Positions 2,566 to 40,636 of a DNA stretch of 64,000 bases are shown here, piece by piece. The notes below the pieces were generated by a model, which was not told the origin of the DNA, did no database searches, and saw only the letters and a program-made list of their open reading frames with translations. Origin of the DNA: Eukaryota sp. GEM-RC1 (taxonomy: Eukaryota); assembly GCA_040285855.1 (NCBI GenBank), contig JAUFOQ010000006.1, forward strand, positions 1,860,001 through 1,924,000, read 5' to 3'. The position numbers and the translations under genes are program-made. The stretch's first letter is position 1; each line of letters opens with the position of its first letter.

Positions 2566-3511
2566 TCAAAAGACTAAGGAATCTAAGCAAACTCCAATTG
2601 TTTGATCTACATTTCGCTGAATAACTTCATCACATTGTTGCTCCAACACCTTCTTAGGATCTGCCTTACCAACATTCTGAATCTCCAACTCTTTCAAAGG
2701 TGTAGTAATTTCTAGATCTAATCGTTTAGAATACTCTTTTGCCATTTCTGACATTGTACTAAGTGATTTCTTGTTATCTTTAAGTAGAGAATTAAAATCT
2801 CGAAGACGAAGTGATGACGTTCTTTTGTCTTTCCCATGTTTAACAGCATATCCTGTTCATGTTCACTCTTCCTATAATCAATCACCATGTTATAGTACTG
2901 TCGACCTAAACCTCTAATAAGTGCTGATATGTTAGGTTTCTCTAAACCACCGATATTGGAAGTAGTTTGTCTTGGTTCTTGGTTAGTGAGGAAGGTCTGC
3001 GGCGGTATGGTTCTGAAGGCATCAATCACGACCTTTCCTTTAACTGATTGGATTGGGTCAACAACTACGGCAACAGCACGTTTGTCAAGCTGTTCCATTG
3101 ATTGCTGTGTGTTGACATCCACAGAGGAGAGCCAGCATCCAAAACCAGGATGACTATGATACCTTAAATAAGAAGAAAGAAAGTGTGAACAAACCAGCCA
3201 ACAACAGGTTCCGATCGGCCTGTTCTTTTCAACATTTCGATCATTTGAGACTGAAAAGCAGAATCGATAGCTTCAACAGACATTGCAGTACCAGATTGGG
3301 GCATAGCAAAGACATCAGTGACTCTAACAGTGTATTCGTCAACAAATTCACCAAGCATGAGGCCCATAACTTCCATAGGAACACCAGCCCGGCCATGTTT
3401 AAGCATTTTCAGTAAGGCAAGAGAAGAGATGTATATGGTTTCCGAAGTATCAGGTGCAGAAGTTTGGGGTTCATTACCACCCATTCCTCCAAGTAGAGAA
3501 GCAAGATCCAT
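2566..3511 (-). CDS. RPN11: 26S proteasome lid deubiquitinase Rpn11/PSMD14 (JAMM); 32-nt intron 3163-3194, one homopolymer frameshift near 2825
   Basis: [27 protein letters not shown]; splicing restores [32 protein letters not shown]. Confidence 0.97.
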
Positions 3512-13162: not shown

Positions 13163-14674
13163 TGTAGGATATATAAAATCTATAGGTTGTAAAATGCAAT
13201 TGAACTGAAATCGACAGTACTTGGTATAAGAAGATTGGTATCCAATCTCTTACGGAATTACGGAACTTGTACAAATGCCATATTTGAGTTTTAAGAGTCG
13301 GATAATTAGTAAACAATCACTTACTGTACTAGGAAGTTGTTGGCTGGGTTATTGCATCAGTCTTCAAAGGTATGTAATTAAAAAACCTTCTCGAAAGAGT
13401 CTGTATTTCTTCTTCTGGTATGTTTATTACAGGTCATCACATTATGTCGACTTCTCAGATGGCTTATTAGTAATTCTGACAGTCTGTGTAGAGAGTTTAT
13501 ATCGTATTATGTCAACTAAGTTATATTCTCAAATCAATTTGTCATAATTACTTCAATCATTCTTCTTGATATATTGGCGGATGCCAACCGCAAAATAAGT
13601 CTTGTCGTAGTTGGAGTTTCTTTGAGAAAAAGAACTACTCTGCAAACATACTCTAGAAAGAGTAGCAGCCGCCCTTTATTACTTGCTGCAGTGAAAATTA
13701 GGCTATTAAGCATGAAGGTGTTTAATCATTAGGAAATACTCTCAAAGTCAACAAAGCAGTCAAAATTATGAATAAGAACTTACTAGTAATTTAAAGTATT
13801 GGTGATTAGTGTCGTTTCCTGAATGGAAAGTGAATGCAACATTTATAGGGAGCTGTAAGTCAAATACGTGTACAGTATATATTTCTTAATTGATTTTAGA
13901 TATAAAAGGTGTTTTCAAATTTTTGTCTTAATATTCTAATTGTGATGCAAATGTAGTATATCCAAATGTATAGATTTGAACAAAAAATCTGGATAAAACA
14001 TGTCTGATCTTATGAACAACACTGAATAAAAGTGCAGGGATACGACAAATCTTCAGTAAGACCAGCTTCATGAATCCGCCAACACTACATAAACACTATC
14101 TCACCTTTGAGATCAACTTTCTGCCCGCTTCTGACAATCGTGAATCTAACGGACGGAGAATCTTTAAAGCTGAACTACTAAGCGTACATACTGGATGGAG
14201 AAAAGTGTTACTACGTATAGTGACGTGTCTTTAGTGTTATCAGACGTGTATCTAAAAAATAAACATTCTTGTCTCTCCTTGTTCCAAGTGCCTTCTGGAA
14301 ACAAAAGGTATACCAATCTTCACTCAATCACGATCACGTGTTTAAGGATATGCCAAGAGAACATACTTTCTCGAGGCGTTCCGTTGTTCTACCTTTTTCC
14401 ATGGTTTGTTTACTAACTTTTCACCAACCAAACAGGACCACGTGTTGAAGGTATGCTGAAAGAACATACTTTCTTGGAGCGTACCATGTTCTTCCATGGT
14501 TCTTTGACCTTTTTCAATTCTTTTGTTTTACACAATCAATAGTTGTATAGTCGTTAGTCGGATTAATCTCCATCATCACAATTTGTTAATGATTTGACTG
14601 TCGATAGAGACATTGAATCTACTCCAGGACCCAAGGAATTGAGAGAAGACAAAGTTTTGTATTTGGTACAGATT

Positions 14675-19732: not shown

Positions 19733-21012
19733 CTATTCCTTCAAAGACAAATGAATCACTCCAGGTAATTCCTTGCCCTCCAAAAGTTCTAAAGAGGCAC
19801 CACCTCCAGTACTAACATGAGAGACCTTATCAGCGAAGCCAAACATCTGACAAGCAGATCCTGAATCACCTCCACCAATAACGGAGAAAGCACCTTGTTC
19901 AGTGGCTTCAACAACAGCTGTCATCAGAGCACGAGTTCCTTCAGCAAAAGTGGGGAACTCAAAAACACCAGCTGGACCATTGAAAACAATAGACTTGCAC
20001 TTCAAGATTTCTTCCTTGAACATTTGTCTTGAATCAGGACCAATATCTAAACCTTCCCATCCATCGGGGATTCCCTCAGCTGTGGAACCAATCTTGGTGT
20101 TAGCATCGTTGGAGAAGTCGTCAGCAGCGACAAAATCAGTAGGAAGGATGATTTCAACACCAAGAGCTTTGGCTTTTTCCATAATTTCTGGGACAATCTT
20201 GGCTCCTTCAGCATCATAAAGACTTTTTCCAATGGCCATGTTGTTCAGAACTTTCTGGAAGGTCCAGTTCATTCCACCAATAATAAACATCTTGTCTACC
20301 TTGTCTAAAAGATTCATAATCAACTGAATTTTGTCAGCGACTTTAGCACCACCCATAATGGCAAGCATGGGTCGTTCAGGATTGACAAGTAGCTTGCTGA
20401 AACATTCGAGTTCCTTTTTAAGAAGGAAACCAGCAACACGTGTTTGGAAGGGGAGAACCATAGAACTGTGTGCTCTATGTGCGGTTCCAAAAGCGTCGTT
20501 GACGTATACATCAGCTAAAGAGGTTAAAGACTCACGGAAGCGGGTAACAGCTTCAGGATCGGCCTTTTCCTTCTTTCCATCAACCTTACGTGATCCTTCT
20601 TCCTCAATGTGGAATCGGAGGTTTTCTAAGAGGAAAACGGTTCCAGGGGCGGGATCTCTGCATTGAGCTTCAACTTCGGATCCAACGCAGTCTTCAAGGA
20701 AAACAACGGGATGAGAGAGAAGCTTTTCGAATTCGGCAGCTATAGGACGTAAAGAGTATTTTTCGACACATTCACCGTTAGGTCTTCCTAACTGATATGA
20801 GAACAGTTTAAAGACATACATGAGAAGCACAGACGATGGATTTGGCCCCATGATCCAAAAAGATAACGGATTGTGGGAAGAGCAGCTGCTATTCTAGAGT
20901 TGCTGGTAATTTCTCCAGTCTTCTTGTTCTGAGGAACATTGAAGTCGACTCGAAGGAAGACACGTTGGTCTTTGATCTCAATATCTTCGATTGAAAGTCT
21001 TGGTTTGTCCAT
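19733..21012 (-). CDS. PGK: Phosphoglycerate kinase; 28-nt intron 20792-20819, homopolymer frameshift near 20858
   Basis: [11 protein letters not shown], spliced [48 protein letters not shown]. Confidence 0.98.
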
Positions 21013-21494
21013 TTGAAGAAGCAAATTGATTGGAAATTTCTTTTTGTTTCTTATGCAAGACATTTCCAAGAGTTGTTTGAAAATCAGCCCAGCCTTACGA
21101 TTTATACCATTTCTGTACCTCGGGGAGACTAAAAATGTAAATCATCAGCTGTGATATCCGATTTCGATTCAAAATCGTATTGTAACATCATAATAATTAA
21201 ATTGAATTAAACAGATTTAGAAAATAACAGATTAAATCATGAGTAATGGTTTATCGAAAACAAATTCTTACCAAATGAATAACCACTACTCAAACAACAT
21301 CTTCAACTACAGCAAACTCTAACACACTAAAGAAACAATCAGAGTGAAGTCACTATGACTTTGCATAAGAAACATTCATTAACAATAAACAATTCAGCTA
21401 GAAAAAGAACTTCACAAAAGCCTTCCGAAAGTAAATCAACGAGCAGTGTTTACAAACACCGTAAAATCTGAAAAAACAGAACTTTTTTAAAAAA

Positions 21495-22118
21495 TTACAG
21501 ATAACCCCCAACTAAGGATTTGTTCAGCTTCATCTCCATCTTCTTAACATCTCTCCTACTTCTTTCAATTAGCTTCTCAGTCCTCCTCTTCAATCTCTCA
21601 CTCTTAGTCAATTCACTTTCCTCCTTCTTACCCCACTGGGATGGATGCATATACCACTTGGATCCATAGACAGGGCCCTGGGGTCGCTTCCAGCTGTTCG
21701 TTGGTAGCTGTTCTTTCATAGAATGACGCGAGATGATAGTTGGATCGGAGCAGATTTGTTGAACGACGGATCGGGGGAGTAACGCATCGGAAATGACTTG
21801 AGACACAGGAATAGGTAGAGCAGGGCAGATATCAATGGTAGGAGAGGCGGGTTTGGGAAGGTAGAGAGACGAGGAGGATTGAGATTTGGTGAGGAAGGTT
21901 GGGGCAGGAGTTGCTGGAGATACTGGTGGTGAAAAGCAGTAAGTGGAAAAAGAGGATTGTGATCTGGGAATAACTAAAGGAGTTGGGCCAGTGGGTGGTG
22001 ATGAATGAACATCAAGTGATGAAGGAGTACGTTTCGGATATGTTTCGTCACAAACTAACCATCGGCGATAAAGAGGAGTTGAGAGGGATTTAGAAGAATG
22101 AAGGCGAGACCCAGACAT
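21495..22118 (-). CDS. Hypothetical Ser/Pro-rich protein
   Basis: 207-aa ORF; its ATG lies about 32 bp from the Fanzor element end. Confidence 0.65.
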   Translation of the reverse strand: MSGSRLHSSKSLSTPLYRRWLVCDETYPKRTPSSLDVHSSPPTGPTPLVIPRSQSSFSTYCFSPPVSPATPAPTFLTKSQSSSSLYLPKPASPTIDICPALPIPVSQVISDALLPRSVVQQICSDPTIISRHSMKEQLPTNSWKRPQGPVYGSKWYMHPSQWGKKEESELTKSERLKRRTEKLIERSRRDVKKMEMKLNKSLVGGYL

Positions 22119-22129
22119 CAACTAAGAGC

Positions 22130-22270
22130 TTGCACTACTGTGGTTCTCAACTCAAATGGATATTCCCAAAGTACACAACTTTGTTAATTTTCATTTTGAT
22201 TAGAGTATCGAAACCACAGACACTCAGTGAGCTAAACCCACTTCGCTGTGTACTGTTAAAAGTACACTAA
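22130..22270 (-). ncRNA. Candidate Fanzor omegaRNA, copy 1 (scaffold ends at 22151; putative guide starts TTGAGAACCACAGTAGT)
   Basis: Lies directly after the Fanzor stop. Four hairpins. Identity with 32330-32449 ends abruptly at ...GGGAATATCCATTTGAG. Confidence 0.75.
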
Positions 22271-24839
22271 AGTTCTTTACGAGAGACCTTCTTCTGCTTG
22301 ACTGACTTTACGCTTCTTCTTTTAGGCGAACTCATTTCTTTTGGTGGATTCTTGCATGACGTTTTGTTATGACCTTCTTGGCCACAATTTCCACATGTTG
22401 GTTTCTTACGAGTCTTTCCTGTTGAAGTTTTCAACTTTCTGGTCGCAGTCTTCTTCTTCTTCTGGTCTCTCGCCAAAGTATCCTTACCACTCTCGAGATC
22501 TGTTGTTTGAGTTTTAGATCTCTCGAGAGCGGATGGCCTACCTTGACCATTGATCGTTGCTTCAATGATGGAATAGATATTAATGGCAGAATTTAGGTCT
22601 CTATTCCAATAAGTCCCACACTCAGTATCTGAGCACTTTACCAGTCCCCAGGGTGTGGATTTAGCTTCTTCTTCCAATGACTTCTGCTTCACCTCCCACT
22701 CTGCTTCCAAAATCCCGTTGGTTTAGAGGATCTTGTTTGTTTTTGAGCAAAATTTCTCTTCTTAACTTTCTCTTCTTCCTTCTTAGCTGTCTCTTACCTT
22801 TGGGACCAAGAACCTTTAGTTCTGAAACATTTTCACATTCTACGAAAGTTGATTTTTCCTTAGCACATTTGGAACAACACTTGCTTGTTCTGTATTCATC
22901 AACAAGAAATATTTGGTATCCATATCTTCTTAACATTTTACGGATTTCCACTCCTCTAACAGTAGAGGTTTTACCCTTTCTTGTTTTACCTTTTGAGCTC
23001 CAATCCCCATAGCCAATGACAACGTCTTCTGGAGGTCCATATGTTAAATTGAAGCGTTCCAGCATGTTTTTCTCTGATTGTTGGTTATTTGAATAAATCT
23101 GGAATTTCCTTTTTCTAAACCAGTCATCTTCGTAAAAAGAACTCAAATATACGTTATATCGTTCAGCTTCTTTAATATATGTTTCAAATGTGTCGCTGAA
23201 ACACGACTTTCTTTCCCCGTTTGATACAGCATTGGAGAATTGGTTAACGACATCTCTTCCTGTTACAAGAATATTATCAGGACGAAGAACCAAAAAATCT
23301 TTAAGTTGTCTTTCAGTGACAGTTTCGTCTGGTGATTCGATAGAAAATTCTTTCAGTTTTCTATTTTCAGATTTACGATATTTTTTAGATTTCCTATCAT
23401 AAGCTCTTTCTCCCGCTGTGTAATTAAACTTCTTCCATTTGTGCTTAGCCTTTTTCTTTGATTTTTTTATCATTATTGGAATTTTTCCAATCTTGTAATT
23501 GTTTCTTTCTTTTCTTAATTCCTCCTCTTTTCTTACTTCTGATTTTTGAGGGTAATCGTTTTTTGAGTGGATTATTTTCAGAAATATCTTCTTCTTTAAG
23601 CTCATCGACTGTCTTTTCTGAAACACAATACATTAAATCATATTCATTGGGATCGACACCGACAATTCTTTTTTTCTTTCAATTGTAATTCGTGAATATT
23701 CTCATTTGATAAAGAGTGAATGTATCTTTCCGAAGTTCCGAGAGATTTAGCAGTAAAATCTTTGAAAGTATTTCCATCTTCATCAACCAAATCTTTCCTC
23801 ATTAAAACCAAACAACAAGAAATTCCATCTGTCAGAATTGAAGAATATCTGAAGACAAATGATTTTGTTGGTGCCACAGCTTTGTCAGTAAGGACCTGAT
23901 CAAAGACCTTTTTTCTTATTTCATCTGCATTTTTGCCACGTATATGAACAAATCTATCATTCATCCAACCTGTGTCCAAACGAATATGCTGAGGAATCAA
24001 TGTCTTCGTCATTGGAAAAGGGTTGTTTACACTGATTGGTTTTCCATCAACCAAACACAAAGATTGTATTGTTCGGTTGATGTACAGAGCATGAGAAATT
24101 AACTCTGTCGGCTTTGCTTTCTGTAAATAGTAAATGTTCTTTTTTGAAAACATTGGAAACAAAGAAAATTTTAAATACGCAAAAAACCTCAACGTTAGTT
24201 CTTCACGTTGATTAGGGAAAATCTCGTGATCTTCAATTGGAATGTCATCAAAATTTCCATTGATAATCGAATCTCTGACTGAATTCAATTTCGAAATCAA
24301 TTTTTTCTTACTAACTTGATCATTGATTTGTTCAAGTCTGACCGTCTTTCTTGTTACCAGATTAAAGAATCTGAAAACATAATCATGAAAATTTTTGACC
24401 ATATTGTTGGCATAATTTGTAGAAATTTGTTTGGCAGTGTAATGAAATATGGAAGACATTGACGTTGAGTCAGGAAAAGATATTTGATTGGATCCAATTT
24501 CAGTAGATAACTGCTGTAGCAGTGGAGAAAAGTTGTTCAAGTAGGGAAATGCAATTTTTTCTTTTCGTTCATTTCTAGGCTTGAAGATTTTTGGAAATCG
24601 TCAATCACTTTTTGAGCCTCTGCTCTTGACATTTCTAGTTCTGACTCTGTAATTGAAGAACCAGTTGATTTCTTCACATACATCCGTCTCAATACTTGTC
24701 TAATAGAATCGTGTTTAAGCAGTTTTTTCAAATCTGGTAAGACTACGGAAAACTTAGTGTAGAGGGGTAAATCAGAAGGTTCTAACGGATCAGAAACAGA
24801 TGCATCATCAGAATCAGGCATTGTATCATGGCTCTTCAT
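22267..24839 (-). CDS. Fanzor1 (eukaryotic TnpB-like RuvC RNA-guided endonuclease), about 855 aa from ATG 24839, four homopolymer frameshifts, C-terminal CCHC knuckle
   Basis: FPMTKTLIPQHIRLDT; ILTDGISCCLV; RuvC-I RIVGVDPNEYDLMYC (D at 23652-23654, across a frameshift); VVIGYGDWS; RuvC-II LVDEYRTSKCCSKC; WGLVKC..C..WNRDLNSAINI RuvC-III; GRPSALER. Confidence 0.92.
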
Positions 24840-24891
24840 TAATTTACGTTCATTTAATGCCAACAAATCAGAAAGTTCAGATGGATACGAA

Positions 24892-25639
24892 CAGGAGTTG
24901 GAAAAATTGCATTGCCAATTAATTGTTCTCAGTTTTTCAGAGGCAATGAATTATTGCAATTATCACATGTGCTACAATTAATTGTTTTGTGATAAAGTGA
25001 CCATTTGCACTTAAAAGAAAGTTCAAAAGTTTGTTCTTTATGATAACAAAACTAGTCTTCAGTGTACAATCAGTGTTGACCAACGTCTTGCAGGATATTG
25101 TGCGCTTAATACAGGAAAATTACCTATTGAGTTCGTTTTCCACAAAGTTGAACGGTCTGAGGCCTTTAATAACCCACTTCATCCATTTAAAGTATTCTGA
25201 GTATTTGTCTTCAATTACAAATGTGTCAAGGGTGCTCATTTGCCTTTCATCAAGTCATTGTGCTCCGGTTGAAGGTTAACATGCTTTGTTCTCAGATGGT
25301 TGGAAAGGTTTGTTCACACGTTACCTTTCAATATCATTGCTTTGCACTTACAAGTGTAGTGTTGCCCTTTGACATGAGCACTTTTTCCAGAATCGGACGG
25401 AGAAAAAAAAGTCAAGCACAGAGTACGATTGTCTGTAGGTAAAGGAAGCAAAGTGTTTTATTGTATATCTGCATTCCGTTATCTGTTTGTAATTTCGATT
25501 CATTTCGTGCATTTGAAACCCCCGTGATAATTGCAATTAATTGCCCAATTAATTGTCGTCCTATTTTGGGGGCCAATTACTTATTGCAATTAATTAATTG
25601 GCAATAATTTAATTGGCAATGCAATTTTTCCAACTCCTG
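24892..25639. mobile_element. hAT-type MITE (748 bp) inserted in the exonuclease-Fanzor linker
   Basis: 30-bp perfect TIRs CAGGAGTTGGAAAAATTGCATTGCCAATTA; 8-bp TSD GATACGAA (24884-24891, 25640-25647); CAATTAATTG subterminal repeats. Confidence 0.92.
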
Positions 25640-26950
25640 GATACGAATCAAAATCATATTCATTCACTAACTCCATTTCACGTAGTCGTTCCTCAAAAAA
25701 ATCATGTTCATTCATTAACTCCATTTCACGAAGTCGTTTCTCAAAAAAATCATGTTCATACATTAAATCTCGTTCTTTTGATTCCGAAACAGAAGATTCT
25801 AGGAGATATGGACGAAAGTAATGAGGATTCATCAAATTTAATTCACATCCACGTGTTTCAAACTCACACATAAGGAGATGTTTCAAAAATTTGAACCCCT
25901 TACTGTTGCTCTTTGATTTCGGATAACACAGTCTTTAATTAAGACAATATTATCCTGATCTTTAATAACTTTCTCCAGTCCCTTTTTCACCACTTTAATT
26001 GGATGGCGCTCTAGAACATGTTGAGTTTCTTCATCAAAGAAATATTCATGTAATTCAGATAAACAGTCAATTCGTTGAAGTAAATCTTCAACCAGAGTAA
26101 TTACTTTTGCATTATCAGTCCACAATTTGAAGGTTTGCTTGTTGTGTGCGAGTAGGTTAAACTCTTTCTCTATTTCCTTGTTAACGGTTATGCCTGGTAC
26201 TTTTCGAAATTCTGTGAAGTACGTAGTTAATTCTAATGACGACAAAATTAAATTCGGTACGTGTCTACGAAACAACTTTGAACAAACATTTTCCAAACTT
26301 CTACCACCTTTGAAGACATAAGTAGACTTTGTAACATTTGCCAAGTCCAGAGAAACAAAAGGTCCAAAATTGCAAAGCTTACACCATCTATGAAACCAGT
26401 TGGGTACGTAGGGTCTGTATGGATTATCTAAATGAAAATTGGTCTGAATCTTGAACATTTCACACCGTTTAATCAAAAAGGAAACAACAGTTCATCAGTG
26501 TTATAACCAATCAAGAATCTGGGTTTTGTTTGATATAAAACTTGGATAAGTTCCCCAATCATGGCCTCTTTTGAAGCACAAACAATTATTTCGACATTTT
26601 CAAATGTATTGTTTATGTTCTTTTACTAAAAATAACAGTTGAAGTGAAATTAGCATAGATAAATTTGAGACTGATAAAGATTATTTTGTCTTCTTTATCC
26701 AAAGGATTTGCAAACAGTTCTGCTCTCGATGCTTCAACTTCTTCTTTGATTTTAGGTATATCAGCATCCTCTGGTTCCTCAGAGTCATCTTCAATATCAT
26801 CAGAGTCGACACTTTTTTTAGGCAATACAGTTTTAGGTGATTTGAGAATTCTTGGATTAAGTCGTTTTGCATCAGTAATCATGGTTTTAAAATCAATTAA
26901 ACAAAATGTTGGGATTTCTTCTGTTTCTGTTAATTCTGATAGATTCGATT
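25640..26950 (-). CDS. Degenerate family-B DNA polymerase 3'-5' exonuclease-like domain; N-terminal part of the Fanzor reading frame (three homopolymer frameshifts)
   Basis: ExoI-like IPTFCLIDFKT; FANPLDKEDKIIFISL; EIIVCASKEAMIGELIQVLYQTKPRFLIGYNTDELLFPFLIKRC (ExoII-like); FVSLDL..RSLENVCSKLF. Joins SYP-SELSDLLALNERKLM in frame once the MITE is removed. Confidence 0.65.
25655..25760 (-). repeat. 48-bp tandem duplication encoding EHDFFE(K/E)RLREMEL(M/V)N linker
   Basis: Two-plus copies visible in the DNA and in the translation. Confidence 0.8.
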
Positions 26951-27559
26951 TCTTGAGAAAAAAACAACAGTTACTACTTTGCCTAAATTGAGACCAAATC
27001 TATTGTCTCGAAATACTCTCAAACCAAATTCGAATTTACCTAGTTTGAAATTATCAAAAAAAGTTACAGATCATGTGGACACTGAATCTGTCAACAGATT
27101 ACCAAATTCTCTTGGTATTCAGACAGATTTTGAAAAAACTTGAACAATACTCATAATATTGCAATGGAGACAGAAACAAAGGTTCTCACAATTGTCCACG
27201 ATATTGTACCACTGTACTGGAACCAAAATGATACAACATCAGACTGTCAATTACATATGAGTTTGAAACTTGAGTTGTTAAAAGATTTAAATTTATTGAT
27301 GGCCAAAATTTTGAATTTTCATTTAAATGATAGGGACAAGTACTTTAATGAGTATTGTTGTGGGATTGGTTTTAAGGAGTCGTTTTCGTTGGCTGTGATG
27401 TTTGCGAGAGTGATGGGGGGATATAGTAGTGATAGTTAAGTTTGATAAACTGAGGTTGTATATTTTATTGGTTGTGTTTAACGACATTATATATAGAAGA
27501 CAAAATTATGAGCAACCACAATTCAATACACATACGACACGTTGATTGAGATTGATTCT

Positions 27560-27722
27560 CACCAAATGTTGTATCACCAAATGTTGTCATTACAAATGTT
27601 GTATCACCAAATGTTGTCATTACAAATGTTGTAGTTACAAATGTTGTCATTACAAATGTTGTAGTTACAAATGTTGTAGTTACAAATGTTGTAAAACACA
27701 TCTTGTATTACACATCTTGTGA
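27560..27722. repeat. Tandem array of 13-15 nt units (ACAAATGTTGTAGTT / CACATCTTGTATTA)
   Basis: Directly visible; an inverted counterpart lies at 28718-28797. Confidence 0.9.
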
Positions 27723-28178
27723 CAACTAAAAGACAATAGATAGTGATAATAGACTGGCATATATGGCTTAACTTTATGAACAAAAGAAAAACATAATGAA
27801 TCAAGATTTCCAAGTCAACATATGCTTTCAGCTTGTGACGGTCAGAGTGAGAAGAAGAAAGATTATCATAAGAAGGAGAATATGCGCTGTTTATCCAGCG
27901 AGAGATCGTACTTTGCGAGACAATGAAGAAAGAAAGATGGGTCGTCCCCATCCAGAGAGATATGACCAAAGAGCCCTCACTTTGGTGTCTTCCGAAGCGT
28001 GGACAGACATGCTCGTTAAGTCGAGTCTTGAGTCCCAGAGCATCTCAAAAGTGTATCCCATAAGTAAAAAGAGTTTGTGGGAATTGGGTGTGTGGGGGAA
28101 TTGGTAAAATGGGGATATTCACCCAAAATGAAAACTGCACTAGCACTAAACAAAGATTTGCCTTAGGGAATTTCATTT

Positions 28179-28515
28179 TTTTTGTGTTTCAACCTTTTGC
28201 TGTTTCTCTTTTTGGATTTATTAGTCCTGCTGGAGATCAATTTTTCAAGGATTTCGAAGAATTGTGTAAAGAAAAGAAGCGCAAGTTTAGAATGGCTGAA
28301 TGGAAAAACCGTATAGTGTTTTCCAATATCGGAATATGCCTTTCTATTTCTCTAGATTAATTGAGAAATTGTACAAGTTTGGTGTGAAGGTTAATGTTGA
28401 TAAACGTAATCTTTTACCGGGTGGTGATGAAGTCGTTTGGATTTAATCTTACAGTAGTATTATTTGTTTGTTTTTACAATTTCATAGTTTTGTAGACCTT
28501 ATTGGGTGCCGAATA
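28179..28515 (+). mobile_element. Family A CRE-like 3' fragment
   Basis: FVFQPFAVSLFG...GDEVVWI* and 3' UTR ending GGGTGCCGAATA. Confidence 0.8.
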
Positions 28516-28798
28516 CTGTTTTCTCTCTTTTTGGATGGATCTCTAGATATCCACATTTTCTCAAATTCACCATACACCCTCTTTCCCCAAACTTTTTCTC
28601 TCAATGGGTTACAGCTTTGAGATGCTTTGAAATACAAATTTGGATCTTTCTAGCATGTCAGTACATGCTTCAGAGGATACAAATGTCAGCAGTATGGTCG
28701 TACCGGAGAGAAGTGTCAGAATACAACATTAGTAATACAAGATTTGTAACACAACATTTGTAATACAAGATGTGTAATACATGGTGTGTAATACAAGG

Positions 28799-29700
28799 TT
28801 ACCTATATTTTCCTATATTTTTCAAAATTAAATACAATTCAAATAAAACACACATACCAGTTTTTTCATCATTTTTCAAATACTCTTTCAAAACATGAAA
28901 CAATTCCACAGGTCTTTCGATTTCGTTCAAGTGTTCGATAGCGAACTTTGACTGACTGATTCTTTTTGGTTCTGCTTCAGTGTTGAACCGAACATCAACA
29001 TATGTATCTGAAAAATTAACAATAACTCTAACTCCTTTTGAACCACTAACTAGTCCAAGTTCAGGCTTGTTTTGAGTGTACATCACTTGTCCACCAACAA
29101 CACAGTCAAGTTTTTTTTCAGCAAAGTCATCTAAACGTTTGGTCAGCACAGAAGTTTCAATGTCATAATATTTCTATAAATTAGATTCTACAACTGGAAA
29201 TCTAAAACTTCTTTTGCTAATTTGAGATTTTAATTCAGATTCATTGAATTTGTTAACAGCTACAAATTCAATTGAATCTGAATTTTTAAGCAAGAATTTT
29301 GAATTGTTTTAAATTATCTTTAGCAACATCAATACTGTATTCCTTCCGTACAAAATAGTTGGGTTTTCAACAGAGGGTGCTGCTGTACCAAAATGATTAT
29401 TCAGAATTGATTTCATAAAATTATCTAACAGATCCAATCTCAATTGATTTAGAAAATTAAAAAATTGCGAATCTGATTGCTGCCGAATACTTCCAGCCAG
29501 TTCACAATAATTGAATTTTAAATTGTTCCAAGCACTTGATGAAAAAGTGAAATCAGAAATTACCACTTTTCGATTTCCTTTACCATCAAGACTTTTAAAA
29601 ACAGGGGCTAATTGAAGAAAGTCTCCGAAACAAATTACCTGTATTCCTCCAAATGGTTTCTTCGGAGAGTGGCATTTTGGCGTGTCATTCGTGAGATTGA
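28799..29700 (-). pseudogene. PIF1-family helicase remnant
   Basis: KPFGGIQVICFGDFLQLAPV; FSSSAW..ELAGSIRQQSD..FLNQLR; VNKFNE; VGGQVMYTQN..LGLVSGSKG. Walker A/B and C-terminal motifs not seen. Confidence 0.8.
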
Positions 29701-30543
29701 TGTTGTGTATAGTGGTTGGTGCCATTGAGTTGATGGATTGTTTGAGCGCAGGGAAACTTGGTCTTCATCAAATTTCTCTTTCACTTCACACCATGACTTT
29801 ATCCAGTGGTATTTCAATCGATCAGACAATTTCATTTCAAATGGATAATCTCACATATCTACACTTGATCCACATCGAACTGTTTTCTGCTTAATTCACA
29901 CCCATCCCTTGATATCCTACATCTGCAGTTCACGACTTCAAATTCTTTCTTATTGACTACGTCAACATAAGTCCGCTATTTCGTACGATTCATTTTCTAT
30001 ATCACACCAGTATGATGGAGGATGTGTTTGTATGTGTATTTGTATCATATCTGACTTCTTTCTTGAATCGTAAATCTCGTTTTAGCATCACTGACTTTTT
30101 GTTTATATATCAAATCTCAATTTAAAACAAGTAAGATAATCACACGGATTACTCAGCGACATTACTCAGAGAATGAAGAAGAAGAATCAAGTAACTCAAG
30201 CAATGAGTTAGAGTCAGATTCTACTGGAACAACTGAGATTACTTCGACTCCACTCCCTCCTCTTAAGTCTCTTGTCAAAAAATCCAATTTTACGAAGAAT
30301 CCTTTTGGACTTTAGATTCCTATAAAGCATAGTAATAAACAAGACTGACCTGTAATATTTGTCATTGATCACAGTTTGAAGGAGTCAGGAGAGTCAAGGA
30401 TTATGAGTTTGGGCACATAACTACATAGACACTAGAACGAACAGACAGTCAGAAGCCATTTTGTTGTGAAAAGTCTGTCGGAAAGAACAATCAGGAAGAA
30501 ATGTTGTGAGATATCTACATGAAGATACAATTCTTTCGTTTAC

Positions 30544-32327
30544 ATGGATCCTTTCATCGTAACAACCGCGGACTCTGCTCCTCAAGACCAAGGCAGTGTT
30601 GTCCAAAGTTCTTTATACTCTGTTTCCTCCGCTGTCGTCGCTACTGCGGACTCTGCTCCTCAAGACCAAGGCAGTGTTGTCCAAAGTTTTTTATACTCTG
30701 TTTCCTCCGCTGTCGTCGCTACTGCGGACTCTGCTCCTCAAGACCAAGGCAGTGTTGTCCAAAGTGGTTTACGTTATGTTTCCTCCGCTGTCGTCTCTGC
30801 TATAACAATCCATCAGAAGAATCGTTGGTGTCATGATCTTACTAATGACGGTGATGTTGAAGCCAACCCTGGGCCACCAGATGAGTTTGTCCATATCCAC
30901 AAACTGTATCATGGGTCATGTGCTACAATCCCACATGACACGATCCTTCATCCCGTTAAAAAGATCAAAGGATTTTTTGTCTGTACTTGTTTAGAACATC
31001 ATCGACAACATCCAAGCAACCGCACTTCATCTGGATTAAATTCATTGAAAGATATACCCGCTTATACGACGTTAAAAGCTGAATCATATCTGTATCAAAT
31101 TCAACGTTATTTCGGTGCTCATCTGGGACAAATGAGCTTTGACAAACATTTCATACCCTATTTTATTGCTACAGAATCAGCCCTGGATCCTCTACAGAAG
31201 GACAAATTCTTTGCTGATTTTATCCAATATCACCAAGCTATTCTAGATAGTCAAGACACAATTTCTCTCCCTATCATGCCCGCTCCTAGTTTGTCTACAC
31301 CTGCGTCAGATTGTCAAAGTTATGAAATATGTAACTACTGCATGCTTCCCGGCCACAAAAGTACTATCAAAGGTGAACCCCTATGTTGTCTTCGTAGTCG
31401 ACCCCTTTCATACCAAAATTTCACTCGAGTTGTTAATTATTTCTCTTGTTATATACCGTCTACAATGTTGGCATACGCCTTAACTGTCTGTCATAAATAC
31501 ATTTTGACGGAACCACATTTGAAAGAAGTAAAAATGTTTCCTGTTCCAGGTAATACTGGAAAAAATGTACAATAACAGAAATAACTAATTTCACCTTCGA
31601 CTTAGTTTCCCATGTCAGCACTGTTGCAGAAACTCTCGATGACTTGTATTTTTCAGCTCTACTGAACGAAATTCGTCACTATGCTAGGTGCAACGGTTTA
31701 GTTTCCGAACAGACTTCCATTGAATCTGAAAATGGTGATGACTTTAATAGCGATTACTTAGATATGGACAAAAGAATTGATAATTTTGCTTTTAGTTTGG
31801 AAAGTGTCGATCAAAATCTTCATTCAACATGGATTTTTCGTTCCCTGTACCGCTTTGTTGTCTTTGCCAAAATCTATGTTGAGTCAGATTCGGATGTCCA
31901 AACAGAATATAGAAAAAGTCATTTGGATTCTCTGTATTTGTTCATTTTTATGCTAGGATATCAAAGTTATATTATCTCTCAAGATTCATCTGAAATTTAT
32001 GAGTTTTCAAATTTAATTAAATTCCCCTTTGACTTCTTTAAGTCTATGTTCAATGAAAAAGACGACGAATTCACTATTTTAGAGGCTATCGATAATGCTT
32101 TAAGATACAAGAGAAAAACAAAACCACAAAGTGTTGTTCAATTGGACCAAGTGATAGTACCACAAGTTTCATCTCTTATGGAAGAAGATCTTATGGAAGA
32201 AGTATGTATGTCATGTGGCCAAGAAGGTCATAACAAAACGTCATGCAAGAATCCACCCAAAAAAATGAGTTCGCCTAAAAGAAGAAGCGTAATGTCAGTC
32301 AAGCAGCAGAAGGTCTCTCGTGAATAA
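30544..32327 (+). CDS. About 595-aa polyprotein-like ORF: 26-aa repeats, 2A-like peptide, unknown domain, CCHC knuckle shared with the Fanzor (one A-run frameshift at about 31563)
   Basis: Adding one A to GGAAAAAAT joins the two ORFs (GKKCTITEITNFTFDL..DDLYFSALL). Contains DLTNDGDVEANPGP and terminal CMSCGQEGHNKTSC. Confidence 0.7.
30565..30795 (+). repeat. Three tandem 78-bp coding repeats (TADSAPQDQGSVVQS..VSSAVV)
   Basis: GCGGACTCTGCTCC recurs at 30568, 30646, 30724. Confidence 0.95.
30826..30876 (+). other. 2A-like ribosomal skipping (StopGo) peptide
   Basis: WCHDLTNDGDVEANPG|P matches the GD(V/I)ExNPGP consensus. Confidence 0.85.
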
Positions 32328-32329
32328 CT

Positions 32330-32470
32330 ATAGTGTACTCTTAACGGTACACAGCGCAGTGGGCTTAGCTCACTGGGTGTCTGTGGTTACGATACTCTAA
32401 GCAAAATGAAAATTAATAAAGTTGTGTACTTTGGGAATATCCATTTGAGCATTAGAAATGTGTTACAATA
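32330..32470 (+). ncRNA. Candidate omegaRNA, copy 2 (scaffold ends at 32449; putative guide starts CATTAGAAATGTGTTAC)
   Basis: Same hairpins as copy 1, with stem substitutions that preserve pairing. Confidence 0.7.
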
Positions 32471-33147
32471 AAACGAATTGCTGGAATTGACTACATACAC
32501 CGCACACAACTGACTCCTCATATCTTTTTCCCCTCCCCGTTTTCCAAATATAACGACAGCAACCGATGTGTCATTTTAGACTGTTGCTGCTTCTGATCAC
32601 TCTTCTTCTATAATTAGATCTTCAGATGATCACTTCTTCGTGGCTTCTATTCTTGATGATTGCAGTGATACTGATGATATTTACCCCAGTAAGCCTTTTT
32701 GTGGCCAATCCATGTGATATATCCGACCGCAATGCTGAAGAAATCGTTACTGTTCCTGCTGAGAATTCTACTATTGACCATCCACAATGTAATGCTTAAT
32801 ATTTCCAAACAGATTCCGACTAAATGCACTACTGAATGCATTATAAATATACTGTAAATTGCTTTGTGGTTCAAGAATAGATGTAAAGCATTGAATATCT
32901 TTAAGTACTAGTAGTTTGTATTTCGTCAATCTATGACACACAGATACTTTCATGTAATAGTTAGAAAAAATGAACTGAGGATCATAATTGTTCTTTTACA
33001 ATCTTCACAAATTTAGCAAGTTAGGATGTTGCCGATTGACTTACACATCAAATGAAATTGAACCTTACTGAGTCATAAACATTGCTTCTTAAAAGAAAAT
33101 AATTGTTACTGAATCAAACAGGAAATATTGAGGCCTTTACTTTTTAG

Positions 33148-33780
33148 ATGATTCGATTCCTTTTCATCCGTCATGCACAGAGCGAAGGGAACACTCACCC
33201 TGAACTTATAGCAGGGAGACAAGCTGAAACACCACTGTCAGAACTTGGACTGCATCAGTCGCAACTTCTTGGCGATCGTCTACGTGAACTTTCGAATTTC
33301 CATGTCTATTGTTCTCCTTTACTGCGAGCCAGAGAAACAGCACGAATTTCACTCGGAGATGATCTATACAAGAATGCCACTATTGTTTCAGAGTTGCAGG
33401 AATTCACCAATGGAGACTGGGATGGAAGGAGACGGTCAGAAGTGTATACCCCTGAACAACTGGCTAAAATCAACAGCGCAGGCTACTTATTTACACCTCC
33501 CGGCGGAGAATCACAGAGAATGGTTCAACGTCGAGCTTCTAACTGGCTTGAAGATGAGATTCTGTACAACACTGAGTTTCAGACCGGTGACCATACGGTT
33601 CTAGTCTTCTCCCACAACATCGTCATTAAATCTCTTCTACATTATATTCTGGGGTTTTCTGATAGGTTTATTTATCGATTCAGCCTTGATAACACTGGTA
33701 TTTGTGAGTTTCACTTTAAAGAGGATGGTTGGTATCCGATTGCTATTAATGATCGGTCACATTTGAGTAAGTTTGATTAA
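33148..33780 (+). CDS. Histidine phosphatase (phosphoglycerate mutase-like) family protein
   Basis: FIRHAQSEGN, YCSPLLRARETA, LQE..GDWDG, PPGGES, VFSH. Confidence 0.9.
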   Translation: MIRFLFIRHAQSEGNTHPELIAGRQAETPLSELGLHQSQLLGDRLRELSNFHVYCSPLLRARETARISLGDDLYKNATIVSELQEFTNGDWDGRRRSEVYTPEQLAKINSAGYLFTPPGGESQRMVQRRASNWLEDEILYNTEFQTGDHTVLVFSHNIVIKSLLHYILGFSDRFIYRFSLDNTGICEFHFKEDGWYPIAINDRSHLSKFD

Positions 33781-37505: not shown

Positions 37506-38096
37506 ATGACTTTCGTTGGATCTCAAACAGAAAAGAACTTAATCACCTCTTTTGTTCACGAATGCTGTGCAGCACAAAGATATGAAATGTTTGCTAAGAC
37601 AGCAACAAAAGAAGGTCATGCCTATATTGGTAAGATCTTTGATGAAACTGCTGCCATGGAACGTGTTCACGCAAACCAGTTTTATACCAAACTTCAAGGT
37701 GGAGAAGTAGAAGTGCAATCTGCTTTCCCTGCTGGAATCGCCGGAAGCAAACGTGTTGGTAACACAGCCACAAATCTTCAAATGTCTATTGATGGTGAGA
37801 ACCATGAACATCAAGTGGTCTACAAAGAGGCTGCTGAGGTCGCCGAAAAGGAAGGTTTCTCTGACATCGCCACTCTCTTCTCCAACGTTGCCAAAGCTGA
37901 GGAGTTCCATGCTAAACGCTTTGCTTACTTGCTTTTGAACCTTACAAACAAAACTCTCTATCATTCAAACGATGTTGTTTATTGGATCTGTTCGAATTGT
38001 GGATTTGTTGAATGTAGTACCGATGCTCCTGCTGTTTGTCCTGCATGCGCACACCCTAAGGGATATTTTTACAGAGAAGGAGTTTCCCTTAATTAG
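37506..38096 (+). CDS. rbr: Rubrerythrin (ferritin-like di-iron domain + rubredoxin-like domain)
   Basis: SQTEKNL..E..A..RY..A..EG..F..TA..E..HA; GENHE..Y; AEEFH; WICSNCG..APAVCPACAHPKGYF. Confidence 0.93.
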   Translation: MTFVGSQTEKNLITSFVHECCAAQRYEMFAKTATKEGHAYIGKIFDETAAMERVHANQFYTKLQGGEVEVQSAFPAGIAGSKRVGNTATNLQMSIDGENHEHQVVYKEAAEVAEKEGFSDIATLFSNVAKAEEFHAKRFAYLLLNLTNKTLYHSNDVVYWICSNCGFVECSTDAPAVCPACAHPKGYFYREGVSLN

Positions 38097-39090: not shown

Positions 39091-40636
39091 ATGCCATCTA
39101 CCCCTCTTCTTCCCGGGTTTTCTGTCCGAGACTACAGCTTTGAGAAGTCTTATAATAAGAAGCATGTTTTTGATTACAGCTGCAACATTCCTGTCGTTCA
39201 AGGAGGTTTCAGCATCCCCCATGAAAATATTGAGGTACCAGAGAATGTTGACACATCCCTACTGAATTGTTCCATCAACACCTCCACTTACGGCTCTTTT
39301 TTCAGTCATTCCTCCAAAGATTTTGTTCCCGCTTTCGTTGAAAAGGACAAAGTTCTACGTTTCTTTGGCTACTTCCTCGAAACAGTTCGTGACTCACCTC
39401 ACGAAACATATCGCATCCGTTTTTGCAAAATTGACTACTTTTTGGTCGACGACACTCTACAAGTCTTGGAACCAGCTGAAGAGAACTCTGGTCTCCCCTC
39501 AAGGCGTCTTCCTCAAGCGTTCAACCGTAGTCAACCCAAAGATCAGCTCCCCATTCACTCCTAGTGACTTTCAGATTGGTCACGTCATATCTATTTATAA
39601 CCGCAACATCAAACTCTACGACTGTAACGAGTCAACCCGTCACTACTACGATGAAATTGACTCTCCTCTAGAACCCTCCCTACCAAAACCTTCAAACGAC
39701 TCTAAACCTCAAACTTCCTTTAACAGAACTTCTTTAGTCTCACATCAGGGTAATCCGGGCTGCGAGGGCTTGAAGTACCTCGATTCCTTCTTGAAAAATG
39801 ACCGAAAAATCCTCCGTTTCTTTTGTCACTATTTTGACTCTTTCCAACAGGCCTACGTCTCTCTTGTTCTTCTCTACTATCTAGCTGACAACTCTGTTGA
39901 GATCATCCAACCTTTCTCTAATGACGACGGCAAGGGAGGAGATGAAGAAGTTCTTGAAGAGGGGTAAACTTCCAGTTGATAGTGATTTGAATCTCTCTCT
40001 TACACCTTCAATGCTTGCTGAGGAAGTCCAGTTCTTGGTTGCATCTGATCTTTATGTCGGTAAAGAGCTCACAGTCTTTAAACACTTGATTGTGATTGTT
40101 GGCTGTGATAAGTTTACCAGTGATTGGTTACGTGATGAGGGAATCCAGGATGACGCGACAGTTATGACTATGAAGGACTTGTCACGTGATAAGTCTGAGA
40201 AAAGAAGGTTGCTGAAATTGAGATTCCTCCGAGAGAGATTTTGATTGGTGATGACGAGGATTCAATGGGCTCAGTTAAATCGTTGATTCCAAAACCACCT
40301 TCCAAAAACGTTTCCAAAATATTAAATAATGTTAAAATTAAGTACAGATTCAGAGCCAAACTAGTTGCAGACTCAATCATTGACTGTGATCGTCGTTTCG
40401 TAATCACTTGGTTCGACTCTGATGATACTCTTTCCATTTTCGAAGAATCTCTACCAAACTCTGGAATCGTTGGCGGTCAGTTTCTAGGTCGTAGCCGTCC
40501 TAAGAAAGCAGATGGAAAGATTGTAACATTGGAGGACTTAGGTATTGGAAAGGAAGTGGCCATATACTCTCGTGTTTTTAGAATTGTTGATGCAGACCAA
40601 TTTACACGGGATCGATTGAACTTGACAGTCGAATAA
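39091..40636 (+). CDS. EFHC1/Rib72-like axonemal protein with three DM10 domains (three frameshifts)
   Basis: TPLLPGFS; DKVLRFFGYF..YFLVDDTLQVLEP..NSGL; DRKILRFF..YYLADNSVEI; RRFVITWF.SDDTLSIFE..PNSGIVGGQFL. Confidence 0.88.

What the first reader, a model, noticed from the sequence alone, without database searches (positions are those of the whole stretch)
30826..30876. 2A StopGo peptide in a Fanzor-associated element
Seen: RWCHDLTNDGDVEANPGP, in frame after three 26-aa repeats. Known: GD(V/I)ExNPGP causes ribosomal skipping in RNA viruses and some non-LTR retrotransposons; W..DLT..G also occurs upstream in viral 2As. Inference: skipping would release a 110-aa repeat peptide and a roughly 485-aa protein starting with Pro that has one knuckle-like motif (CNYC...GH) and the terminal CCHC. 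This points to a viral or retroelement origin of the cargo.
Basis: partly seen in the sequence, partly recalled or inferred. Interest (0 to 1): 0.7.

Follow-up and report, generated by a model that had tools for sequence, protein, structure and literature searches.

The report
2A peptide heads protist helicase element
A virus-style ribosome-skipping (2A) signal is conserved in an uncharacterised multicopy gene family of an anaerobic protist, where it likely cuts a variable repeat-encoded leader off the working protein; this copy ends in the tail of a Fanzor transposon where its relatives carry a helicase.

Summary
The motif is real. Window 30826-30876 encodes W-x-x-DLT-x-DG-DVEANPGP, an exact match to StopGo 'motif 4' of Li et al. 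2026; about 2e-13 such matches are expected per window. It is conserved. Three near-identical relatives from the same organism keep 12 of 17 residues at the same place, behind an unrelated repeat leader (2, 3 or 4 units). They share the orphan Cys/His-rich domain (32-46% identity) and continue into a DEAH/RHA helicase domain. The window copy instead joins, in frame, the last 236 bp of a neighbouring Fanzor1 element: zinc knuckle, stop and a hairpin-rich 3' end, 94% identical. No shared 5' end or target duplication was found, so the 2A belongs to the helicase family and the Fanzor link is shown for this copy only. The '485-aa' product needs a -1 break at an A6 run read through. Essential genes nearby carry the same kind of single-base break, so assembly error is likeliest. 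No relative outside this genome, no reverse transcriptase and no viral gene was found. Skipping is untested. Verdict: new variant of a known kind (2A at the head of a eukaryotic mobile ORF).

The parts
30544..30825 (+). ATG-started leader, mostly 2.9 tandem 78-nt (26-aa) units at 30568-30795; predicted to be released with the 2A as a 110-aa peptide
   Evidence: unrelated to the 39-aa repeat leader of P0002/P0003/P0005 (local score 19)
30826..30876 (+). 2A/StopGo peptide, motif 4 (hybrid class A/B); predicted skip between Gly (30871-30873) and Pro (30874-30876)
   Evidence: motif definition in PMC12846837; 12/17 identical in P0002
30874..31575 (+). Orphan domain, first half: conserved H..HPVK.I.G..C[TS]CLEH and CN.CMLP...CCL (31330-31392), possibly metal-binding (inferred)
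   Evidence: 32% identity to P0002, 32% to P0006 and 35% to P0008; alignment; no Pfam/NCBIfam family at a meaningful E-value
31550..31605 (+). Frame break (-1) at the A6 run 31560-31565; alternatives are a 29-nt GT-AG intron (31550-31578), the 56-nt intron implied by the database gene model P0001, or slippage on A_AAA_AAT
31554..32150 (+). Orphan domain, second half: helical bundle with WIFRSLYRF.VFAK.Y and FMLGYQSYIIS
   Evidence: 46% identity to P0002; AF2 mean pLDDT 61, core 70-85; no fold match
32174..32213 (+). Junction: in-frame 15-nt tandem duplication, then the first Cys of the knuckle (32205), which lies outside the shared segment
32214..32449 (+). Fanzor-type 3' end: rest of the CCHC knuckle (to 32246), basic tail, stop (32325-32327) and a hairpin-rich 3' region, candidate guide-RNA scaffold (inferred)
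   Evidence: 221/236 identical to 22151-22386 (-); fold z -2.5; no Rfam match
22151..24600 (-). Neighbouring Fanzor1 element: nuclease ORF in three frames (two one-base breaks at A runs), RuvC D-E-D motifs present, C-terminal knuckle, same 3' end
   Evidence: PDB hits to three Fanzor1 structures, best E 1.3e-8; Pfam PF07282 E 1.5e-4, below its curated cut-off; motifs; 3' fold z -3.2
14582..14632 (+). Second, decayed 2A of the same type (W>F, G>R, N>T) in a short dead frame
   Evidence: 31.1 bits against a shuffled-window maximum of 6.1 in 15 shuffles

Best explanation
The 17-residue peptide is a complete, conserved StopGo motif that likely makes the ribosome release a 110-residue repeat leader and carry on with a proline-started protein; it belongs to a multicopy, probably mobile family of this genome (repeat leader - 2A - orphan Cys/His domain - DEAH helicase), and this copy has a Fanzor1 3' end where its relatives have the helicase. 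The likely job of the 2A is trimming: the leader is made of tandem repeats that differ in unit and number between copies (95, 110, 134, 173 aa), while the product after the skip would always start at the same place. Shown: motif, position, conservation, variable leaders, shared domain, helicase in the relatives, 236-bp shared end. Inferred: skipping in this organism, the trimming role, mobility of the family, that the chimaera arose by insertion or recombination of a Fanzor end, and that the break at 31560 is an assembly error.
For: Exact match to motif 4, whose tested representative skipped at almost 100% in reticulocyte lysate (PMC12846837). The related W(V/I)RDL...GDVESNPGP peptides gave 89-95% in HEK293T (bioRxiv 2026.09.24.754024). 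Chance expectation 1.7e-13 per window. 12/17 identity with P0002 against 2/17 in the 17 residues just upstream and 38% in the aligned post-2A stretch (binomial P 0.006). P0002, P0003 and P0005 differ at only 0-2 residues over about 600 aligned post-2A residues, P0005's broken end aside, yet carry 3, 4 and 2 repeat starts. With fragment P0004 they lie on three contigs by length, which suggests recent copying. Decayed motifs occur in a fragment (P0008) and at 14582, as expected of dead copies. Helicase: all but the last of 59 PDB sequences at E<=1 are DEAH/RHA helicases, best 2.7e-6; NCBIfam HrpA 7.6e-7. Homology to P0002 ends at 32150 and identity to the Fanzor end begins at 32214. RPN11 in this window changes frame between consecutive residues (about 224 and 228 of the PDB chain) at an A run; PGK and an EFHC1-like gene show similar breaks by eye. 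The spacer across the break is 30 aa in P0002, 33 if read through, 23 or 14 with the two intron options (hand count). Three host introns start GT[A/T]TGT (read by eye); the candidates start GTAATA.
Against: No skipping assay. Motifs are necessary but not sufficient: 14/17 class A and 8/17 class B peptides were active in Rao et al., and single upstream changes can abolish activity. Positions 2-3 here are C-H, not the V-(R/K) of the published signature. One 17-residue window in the post-2A domain is as conserved as the 2A (12/17), so the motif is not uniquely conserved. No transposase, RT or element ends are known for the family, because only protein records were seen; a tandemly variable host gene family is not excluded. 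P0002 and P0003 both stop just after helicase motif III, so the helicase may be a half domain. In the shared tail 5 of 6 changed codons are non-synonymous, one of them the stop, which does not suggest selection on the fused tail. Yet the first knuckle Cys lies outside the shared segment and is in register, about 1% by chance on my rough estimate, which a casual fusion explains poorly.
Confidence: 0.6

Rival explanations
1. 22151-32449 is one 10.3-kb composite DNA transposon with 236-bp terminal inverted repeats. The Fanzor and the 2A ORF both point outward and end inside the repeats, which is why they share a knuckle; the 2A gene is its cargo.
For: The two arms are inverted, 94% identical and end at the same base. 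Both ORFs run in frame into the arm with a full CCHC. A Pif1 fragment (PF05970, E 7.5e-10) and BED/hAT-like remnants (by eye, recalled motifs; no Pfam hit) lie between. Fanzor1 is known in hAT, Helitron and other elements (PMC10530073, PMC3627910; passages).
Against: No target-site duplication for end shifts -6 to +12 (one 3-mer at +9 only). The interior is a patchwork with other repeats inserted. The arm is the natural 3' end of a Fanzor gene, so two independent insertions explain it. The closest relatives of the 2A ORF lack the knuckle at that place.
Confidence: 0.15
2. The family is the 5' part of a retrotransposon, or of a helicase-bearing DNA transposon, whose catalytic ORF lies downstream of a frame break and was split off in the gene models; the 2A is then the familiar N-terminal LINE-type signal.
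For: 2A in the N-terminal region of LINE ORFs is established (PMC3708506; PMC13405545). P0005 is cut by a frame change, so the models are truncated. 5' tandem repeats are typical of several LINEs (recalled).
Against: No APE, PHD, RT or ORF1-type family in 846-885 aa. In the passages of Odon et al. the 2A precedes APE, PHD or a 90-115-aa tract, not about 550 aa of orphan sequence and a DEAH helicase. I found no paper on DEAH/RHA-bearing transposons (listings only).
Confidence: 0.15
3. The family is an endogenised RNA-virus polyprotein (2A plus SF2 helicase) amplified in the genome.
For: Motif 4 is common in RNA-virus polyproteins: 24 stretches in viral contigs. 8 of 10 hits of the representative search match only around the 2A; the two of them with a taxon name are viral.
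Against: No similarity beyond the motif to any of 47 fetched loci or to viral contigs. No flavivirus, potyvirus or poxvirus helicase among 59 PDB rows. No viral fold match. Near-identical dispersed copies with variable tandem repeats are not typical of virus relics (own knowledge).
Confidence: 0.07
4. The motif is real by descent but inactive here: a dead, frameshifted pseudogene in a transposon graveyard.
For: The frame is broken; the surroundings hold decayed Pif1 and other remnants; the tail shows 5 non-synonymous to 1 synonymous change.
Against: Only one break in 1.78 kb, at a homopolymer, like those in essential genes. The motif has none of the disabling changes seen at 14582 or in P0008. 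This rival is partly compatible with the best explanation, which concerns the family.
Confidence: 0.2

Closest known systems
StopGo upstream motif 4 (DLTxDG + DVExNPGP; Li et al. 2026, PMC12846837), the hybrid class A/B peptides of bioRxiv 10.64898/2026.09.24.754024
   Same: Identical core, G at p11, DLTxDG hexapeptide and W in the same register.
   Different: Described from RNA-virus data sets; here in a protist nuclear repeat. Positions 2-3 are C-H instead of V-(R/K); p15 is A, where S is preferred.
2A-bearing APE-type non-LTR retrotransposons (L1Tc, ingi, CR1, L2, Crack; Odon et al. 2013, PMC3708506)
   Same: 2A near the N terminus of a long ORF in a multicopy eukaryotic sequence, separating a short leader from the body.
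   Different: No APE, PHD or RT seen; the body is an orphan Cys/His plus helical domain and a DEAH/RHA helicase; the leader is a variable tandem repeat; the upstream motif is DLTxDG ('DLT' has 0 occurrences in that paper's main text).
Fanzor1 elements and their non-autonomous derivatives (Bao and Jurka 2013, PMC3627910; Jiang et al. 2023, PMC10530073)
   Same: The neighbour is a Fanzor1 with a structured 3' end; extra copies of such 3' RNA loci without nuclease are reported in Chlamydomonas.
   Different: The 2A ORF has no nuclease domain and shares only the last 236 bp; no paper held both 'Fanzor' and 'NPGP'.
Cellular DEAH/RHA helicases (Prp43, DHX15, HrpA)
   Same: The relatives' C terminus has motifs I, II (DEVH) and III and matches these at E about 1e-6.
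   Different: Only the first RecA domain is present in the records; it sits behind a 2A and an orphan domain in near-identical dispersed copies; absent from the window copy.

Membership tests
2A/StopGo, motif 4 (hybrid A/B) | Core D(V/I)ExNPGP | tested here: met
2A/StopGo, motif 4 (hybrid A/B) | Upstream DLTxDG with W three residues before the D | tested here: met
   against the definition; the V(R/K) after W is not matched
2A/StopGo, motif 4 (hybrid A/B) | In frame inside an ORF and conserved in homologues | tested here: met
2A/StopGo, motif 4 (hybrid A/B) | Peptide-bond skipping at G|P | not testable with these tools
   needs a reporter or N-terminal proteomics
Class B 2A (Rao et al. 2025) | WxxxL/VxxEG(I/V)Ex(N/H)PGP, W at -16 | tested here: not met
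   core is GDVE and W is one residue further upstream; pattern
2A-bearing non-LTR retrotransposon | 2A in the N-terminal region of a long ORF | tested here: met
   residue 95-111 of about 594 here; 119-135 of 846 in P0002
2A-bearing non-LTR retrotransposon | APE and reverse transcriptase downstream | tested here: inconclusive
   none in the window copy or in P0002-P0005, but DNA beyond the relatives' gene models could not be read
Fanzor1 element (neighbour, 22151-24600) | Fanzor1 homology with RuvC D-E-D and zinc ribbon | tested here: met
Fanzor1 element (the 2A ORF itself) | Encodes the nuclease | tested here: not met
   only the knuckle and tail match
Fanzor1 element (the 2A ORF itself) | Carries the structured 3' end | tested here: met
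   221/236 identity; three hairpins in both copies; that it is a guide RNA is not tested
Fanzor1 element (the 2A ORF itself) | Shares the 5' end, or is flanked by a target duplication | tested here: not met
   (28801-30560 against 22101-28800; end shifts -6 to +12)
Endogenous RNA virus | RdRp, capsid or NS3/CI-type helicase | tested here: inconclusive
   none found; helicase is DEAH/RHA-like; downstream DNA of relatives unseen
Helitron | Rep plus Pif1 in the same element as the 2A ORF | tested here: inconclusive
   a decayed Pif1 fragment lies upstream on the other strand; no Rep seen; linkage unknown

The most novel reading that the evidence does not exclude
An undescribed class of eukaryotic mobile element whose single polyprotein is repeat leader - 2A - orphan metal-binding domain - DEAH RNA helicase, using StopGo to keep a fixed N terminus behind an expanding 5' repeat array; one lineage has swapped the helicase for a Fanzor guide-RNA end and spreads with the Fanzor nuclease in trans.
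Probability: 0.2. Interest if true: 0.75.

Novelty: new variant of a known kind. Interest (0 to 1): 0.5.

Why it matters
It extends StopGo to a metamonad genome and to a multicopy family with no RT or APE in sight, using the W..DLT.DG type that one 2026 survey calls rare among eukaryotic 2A-like peptides (-15W in 27 of 2,499; PMC13405545). The natural series of leaders (95, 110, 134, 173 aa, two unrelated repeat units, same cut site) makes the old question of why mobile ORFs carry an N-terminal 2A directly testable: trimming versus down-regulation. The orphan domain plus DEAH helicase may mark a new element type. The Fanzor link is a side story unless more chimaeric copies are found.

Tried and rejected
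Genetic code 6 does not open the ORF and host genes read in the standard code. No whole genome is held. No sequencing run was listed (no evidence either way), so reads could not settle the break or expression. Word-index search with ORF1 at 188-601 aa: 0 of 173 candidates; this missed the relatives because they are longer. The typed helicase part against 435-2000-aa proteins returned only P0002, 1 of 1549 candidates; the known cellular DEAH helicases were not returned, so that search is insensitive. Viral contigs with ORF1 and with P0002: none confirmed. Exact 32-nt 3' end in metagenome contigs: 0. Motif scans gave 24 viral and 23 metagenome stretches; none matched the post-2A domains at tblastn E<=0.5. 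ESM Atlas: nothing for ORF1, only DEAD/DEAH clusters below 0.9 for P0002. AF2 of P0002 failed (pLDDT 29.8) and was not searched. The helical domain (pLDDT 61) gave no Foldseek hit at E<=0.001 and a best VIA Z of 8.1, within the range of common helical bundles; no fold is excluded. Alignment A3 misplaced the fragments and was not used. Rfam: 0 matches in 21500-33200. Pfam PPIase_AIP hits on the P0002 repeats are treated as repeat artefacts. A would-be guide target for either Fanzor end: only chance-level 14-mers. Programmed -1 frameshifting on A_AAA_AAT was considered; the P0002 family is open across this region, so it is unlikely to be a family trait. The PSSM was built from hits to a pattern partly taken from this motif, so the 52.7 bits for 30826 are circular; one search is the independent estimate. 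No complex prediction was run.

Full report
Observation. Window 30826-30876 (+) encodes the stated peptide inside an ORF from ATG 30544 to a stop at 31575. It follows 2.9 copies of a 78-nt unit. It is the only D(V/I)ExNPGP in the window's six frames. From the window's own residue frequencies the core is expected 3.4e-5 times and core plus W..DLT.[DE]G 1.7e-13 times. The leader to the glycine is 110 aa.

What kind of 2A. Li et al. 2026 (PMC12846837; passages and parts 1, 3, 4 of 7 read) define motif 4 as DLTxDG before DVExNPGP, with a WV(R/K)DLTx[acidic]G signature; their representative skipped at almost 100% in lysate. The window peptide matches all but the V(R/K). It is not class B of Rao et al. 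2025 (PMC12338488; parts 1-3 of 8 read), whose W lies one residue nearer and whose core is EG(I/V)E. A 2026 preprint calls this form a hybrid of classes A and B and measured 89-95% for two such peptides (10.64898/2026.09.24.754024; passages and section 29). Pattern scans found the motif in 24 stretches of viral contigs and 23 of metagenome contigs; similarity stops at the motif. The four Rao supplements held as text contain neither this peptide, the P0002 peptide, nor the words Metamonada, Fornicata, Parabasalia or Preaxostyla.

The family. Searching longer proteins with the second frame gave 2 hits among 717 candidates: P0001, the database model of this gene, fused by prediction to the next phosphatase gene, and P0002 (846 aa). 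Both are NCBI records labelled Eukaryota sp. GEM-RC1; passages of PMC11316075 describe that organism as a free-living metamonad with a nanopore-based, 48% repetitive assembly. P0002 clusters with P0003, P0005 and the fragment P0004, on three contigs by length. The HMMER search of 1.84 billion representatives gave 10 hits: P0006 and P0008 from the same organism, and 8 that match only around the 2A. P0002 aligns to both frames of the window gene in order, at 32% and 46%. Its 2A sits at the same place and shares 12 of 17 residues, against 2 of 17 just upstream. Its leader is an unrelated 39-aa repeat; P0005, P0002 and P0003 have 2, 3 and 4 repeat starts and leaders of 95, 134 and 173 aa, while their post-2A parts differ at 0-2 residues, P0005's broken end aside. 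After the shared domain P0002 runs into a helicase domain with motifs I, II and III; 58 of 59 PDB sequences at E<=1 are DEAH/RHA helicases and none is viral. P0002 and P0003 stop just after motif III. P0008 has a decayed 2A, and a second decayed 2A lies at window 14582 (31.1 bits, shuffled maximum 6.1). Against: one post-2A window is as conserved as the 2A itself (12/17), and no ends, RT or transposase are known for the family.

The orphan domain. No Pfam or NCBIfam family at a meaningful E-value. Conserved are H..HPVK.I.G..C[TS]CLEH, CN.CMLP...CCL and a helical stretch. AF2 failed on the whole protein and gave a helical bundle without a clear match for the second half.

The frame break. It lies at an A6 run, 31560-31565. 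RPN11 in the same window changes frame between residues about 224 and 228 of the PDB chain at an A run. PGK, an EFHC1-like gene (twice) and the Fanzor (twice) show one-base breaks by eye. An assembly error is therefore the simplest reading. A 29-nt GT-AG intron (31550-31578) would also restore the frame and fits the host intron size (28, 28 and 32 nt, by eye), but it starts GTAATA and is purine-rich, whereas the three host introns start GT[A/T]TGT; the spacer would be 23 aa against 30 in P0002 and 33 on read-through. No reads were available.

The Fanzor link. A Fanzor1 lies on the minus strand at 24600-22270 with its three RuvC acidic motifs and a C-terminal knuckle. Its last 236 bp are 94% identical to 32214-32449, inverted. 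The segment starts at the second Cys of the knuckle and ends at the same base in both copies. Its 3' part folds better than shuffles (z -2.5 and -3.2) with the same three hairpins in both copies; Fanzor guide RNAs come from such 3' ends (PMC10530073, passages; PMC3627910, passages). Of six changed codons in the shared coding part one is synonymous. No shared 5' end and no target duplication were found. Homology to P0002 ends at 32150, so this copy is a chimaera: family head, Fanzor tail. One oddity remains: the first Cys of the knuckle lies outside the shared segment yet in register.

Mechanism. Most likely the ribosome starts at 30544, translates the repeats, stalls on the motif, releases the 110-aa leader and continues from the proline (inferred from tested homologous motifs). 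Because leaders vary in unit and number while the cut site is fixed, the 2A would let a 5' repeat array expand without altering the working protein (inferred). Down-regulation of the downstream product, proposed for LINE 2As (PMC3708506, passages; PMC13405545, passages), is an alternative role. Whether this copy is expressed or makes a guide RNA is unknown.

Novelty. 2A at the head of eukaryotic mobile ORFs is known from LINEs. Unchecked notes of this scan report it in Penelope-like, CRE-like and Helitron elements; I treat them as leads only. New here are the host group, the motif-4 type, the repeat leaders and the orphan-plus-DEAH body. No held paper contains both 'Fanzor' and 'NPGP'; listings for DEAH or helicase with transposon and 2A, and for 2A with metamonads, showed nothing relevant (listings only). 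Supplements of the two 2026 preprints and the PNAS data sets were not seen and may hold these peptides.

Verdict. Observation partly confirmed, interpretation partly supported. Interest 0.5; new variant of a known kind.

Noticed in passing
window 14582-14632 (+): A second, decayed motif-4 2A with unrelated flanks, followed by 14-nt repeats also seen at 27563-27720 and 28720-28796; suggests more 2A-bearing elements in this genome.
   Followed up: partly
window 22151-24600 (-): A Fanzor1 with all three RuvC motifs, broken only at A runs, with a C-terminal CCHC knuckle and basic tail after the usual end; possibly intact, and from a metamonad. An upstream frame (24552-24950) may be its N terminus.
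   Followed up: partly
window 2569-3510 (-), 19733-21063 (-), 39091-40244 (+): Essential or conserved host genes (RPN11, PGK, EFHC1-like) carry one-base frame breaks at homopolymers; frameshift-based findings in this assembly need caution.
   Followed up: yes
window 28800-29764 (-): Decayed Pif1 helicase fragment (PF05970, E 7.5e-10) lacking its Walker A region, head to head with the 2A ORF.
   Followed up: partly
window 24940-25520 (-): BED-finger and hAT-like remnants upstream of the Fanzor by eye (recalled motifs); Pfam gave no hit on the short frames.
   Followed up: partly
window 27560-28800: Element with inverted arms (27976-28118 / 28547-28689, 70%) and 14-15-nt subterminal repeats, holding a copy of another repeat (28181-28515) found at several places in the window.
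   Followed up: no
P0002 residues about 376-381: A WLRDLT stretch, like the front half of a 2A without its core, lies at the spot that corresponds to the window's frame break; may be chance.
   Followed up: no
L040, L042 (metagenome contigs): Motif-4 2As followed by sequence that looks like a tyrosine-recombinase (L040) or an APE endonuclease (L042), by eye and from recall; motif 4 may be used by other eukaryotic retroelements.
   Followed up: no
window 30103-30543 (+): The frame upstream of the ATG reads like decayed coding sequence (acidic, Ser-rich) with several stops; the original ORF may have been longer.
   Followed up: no
window 37506-38096 (+): Rubrerythrin gene, typical of anaerobes and probably of prokaryotic origin (own knowledge).
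   Followed up: no
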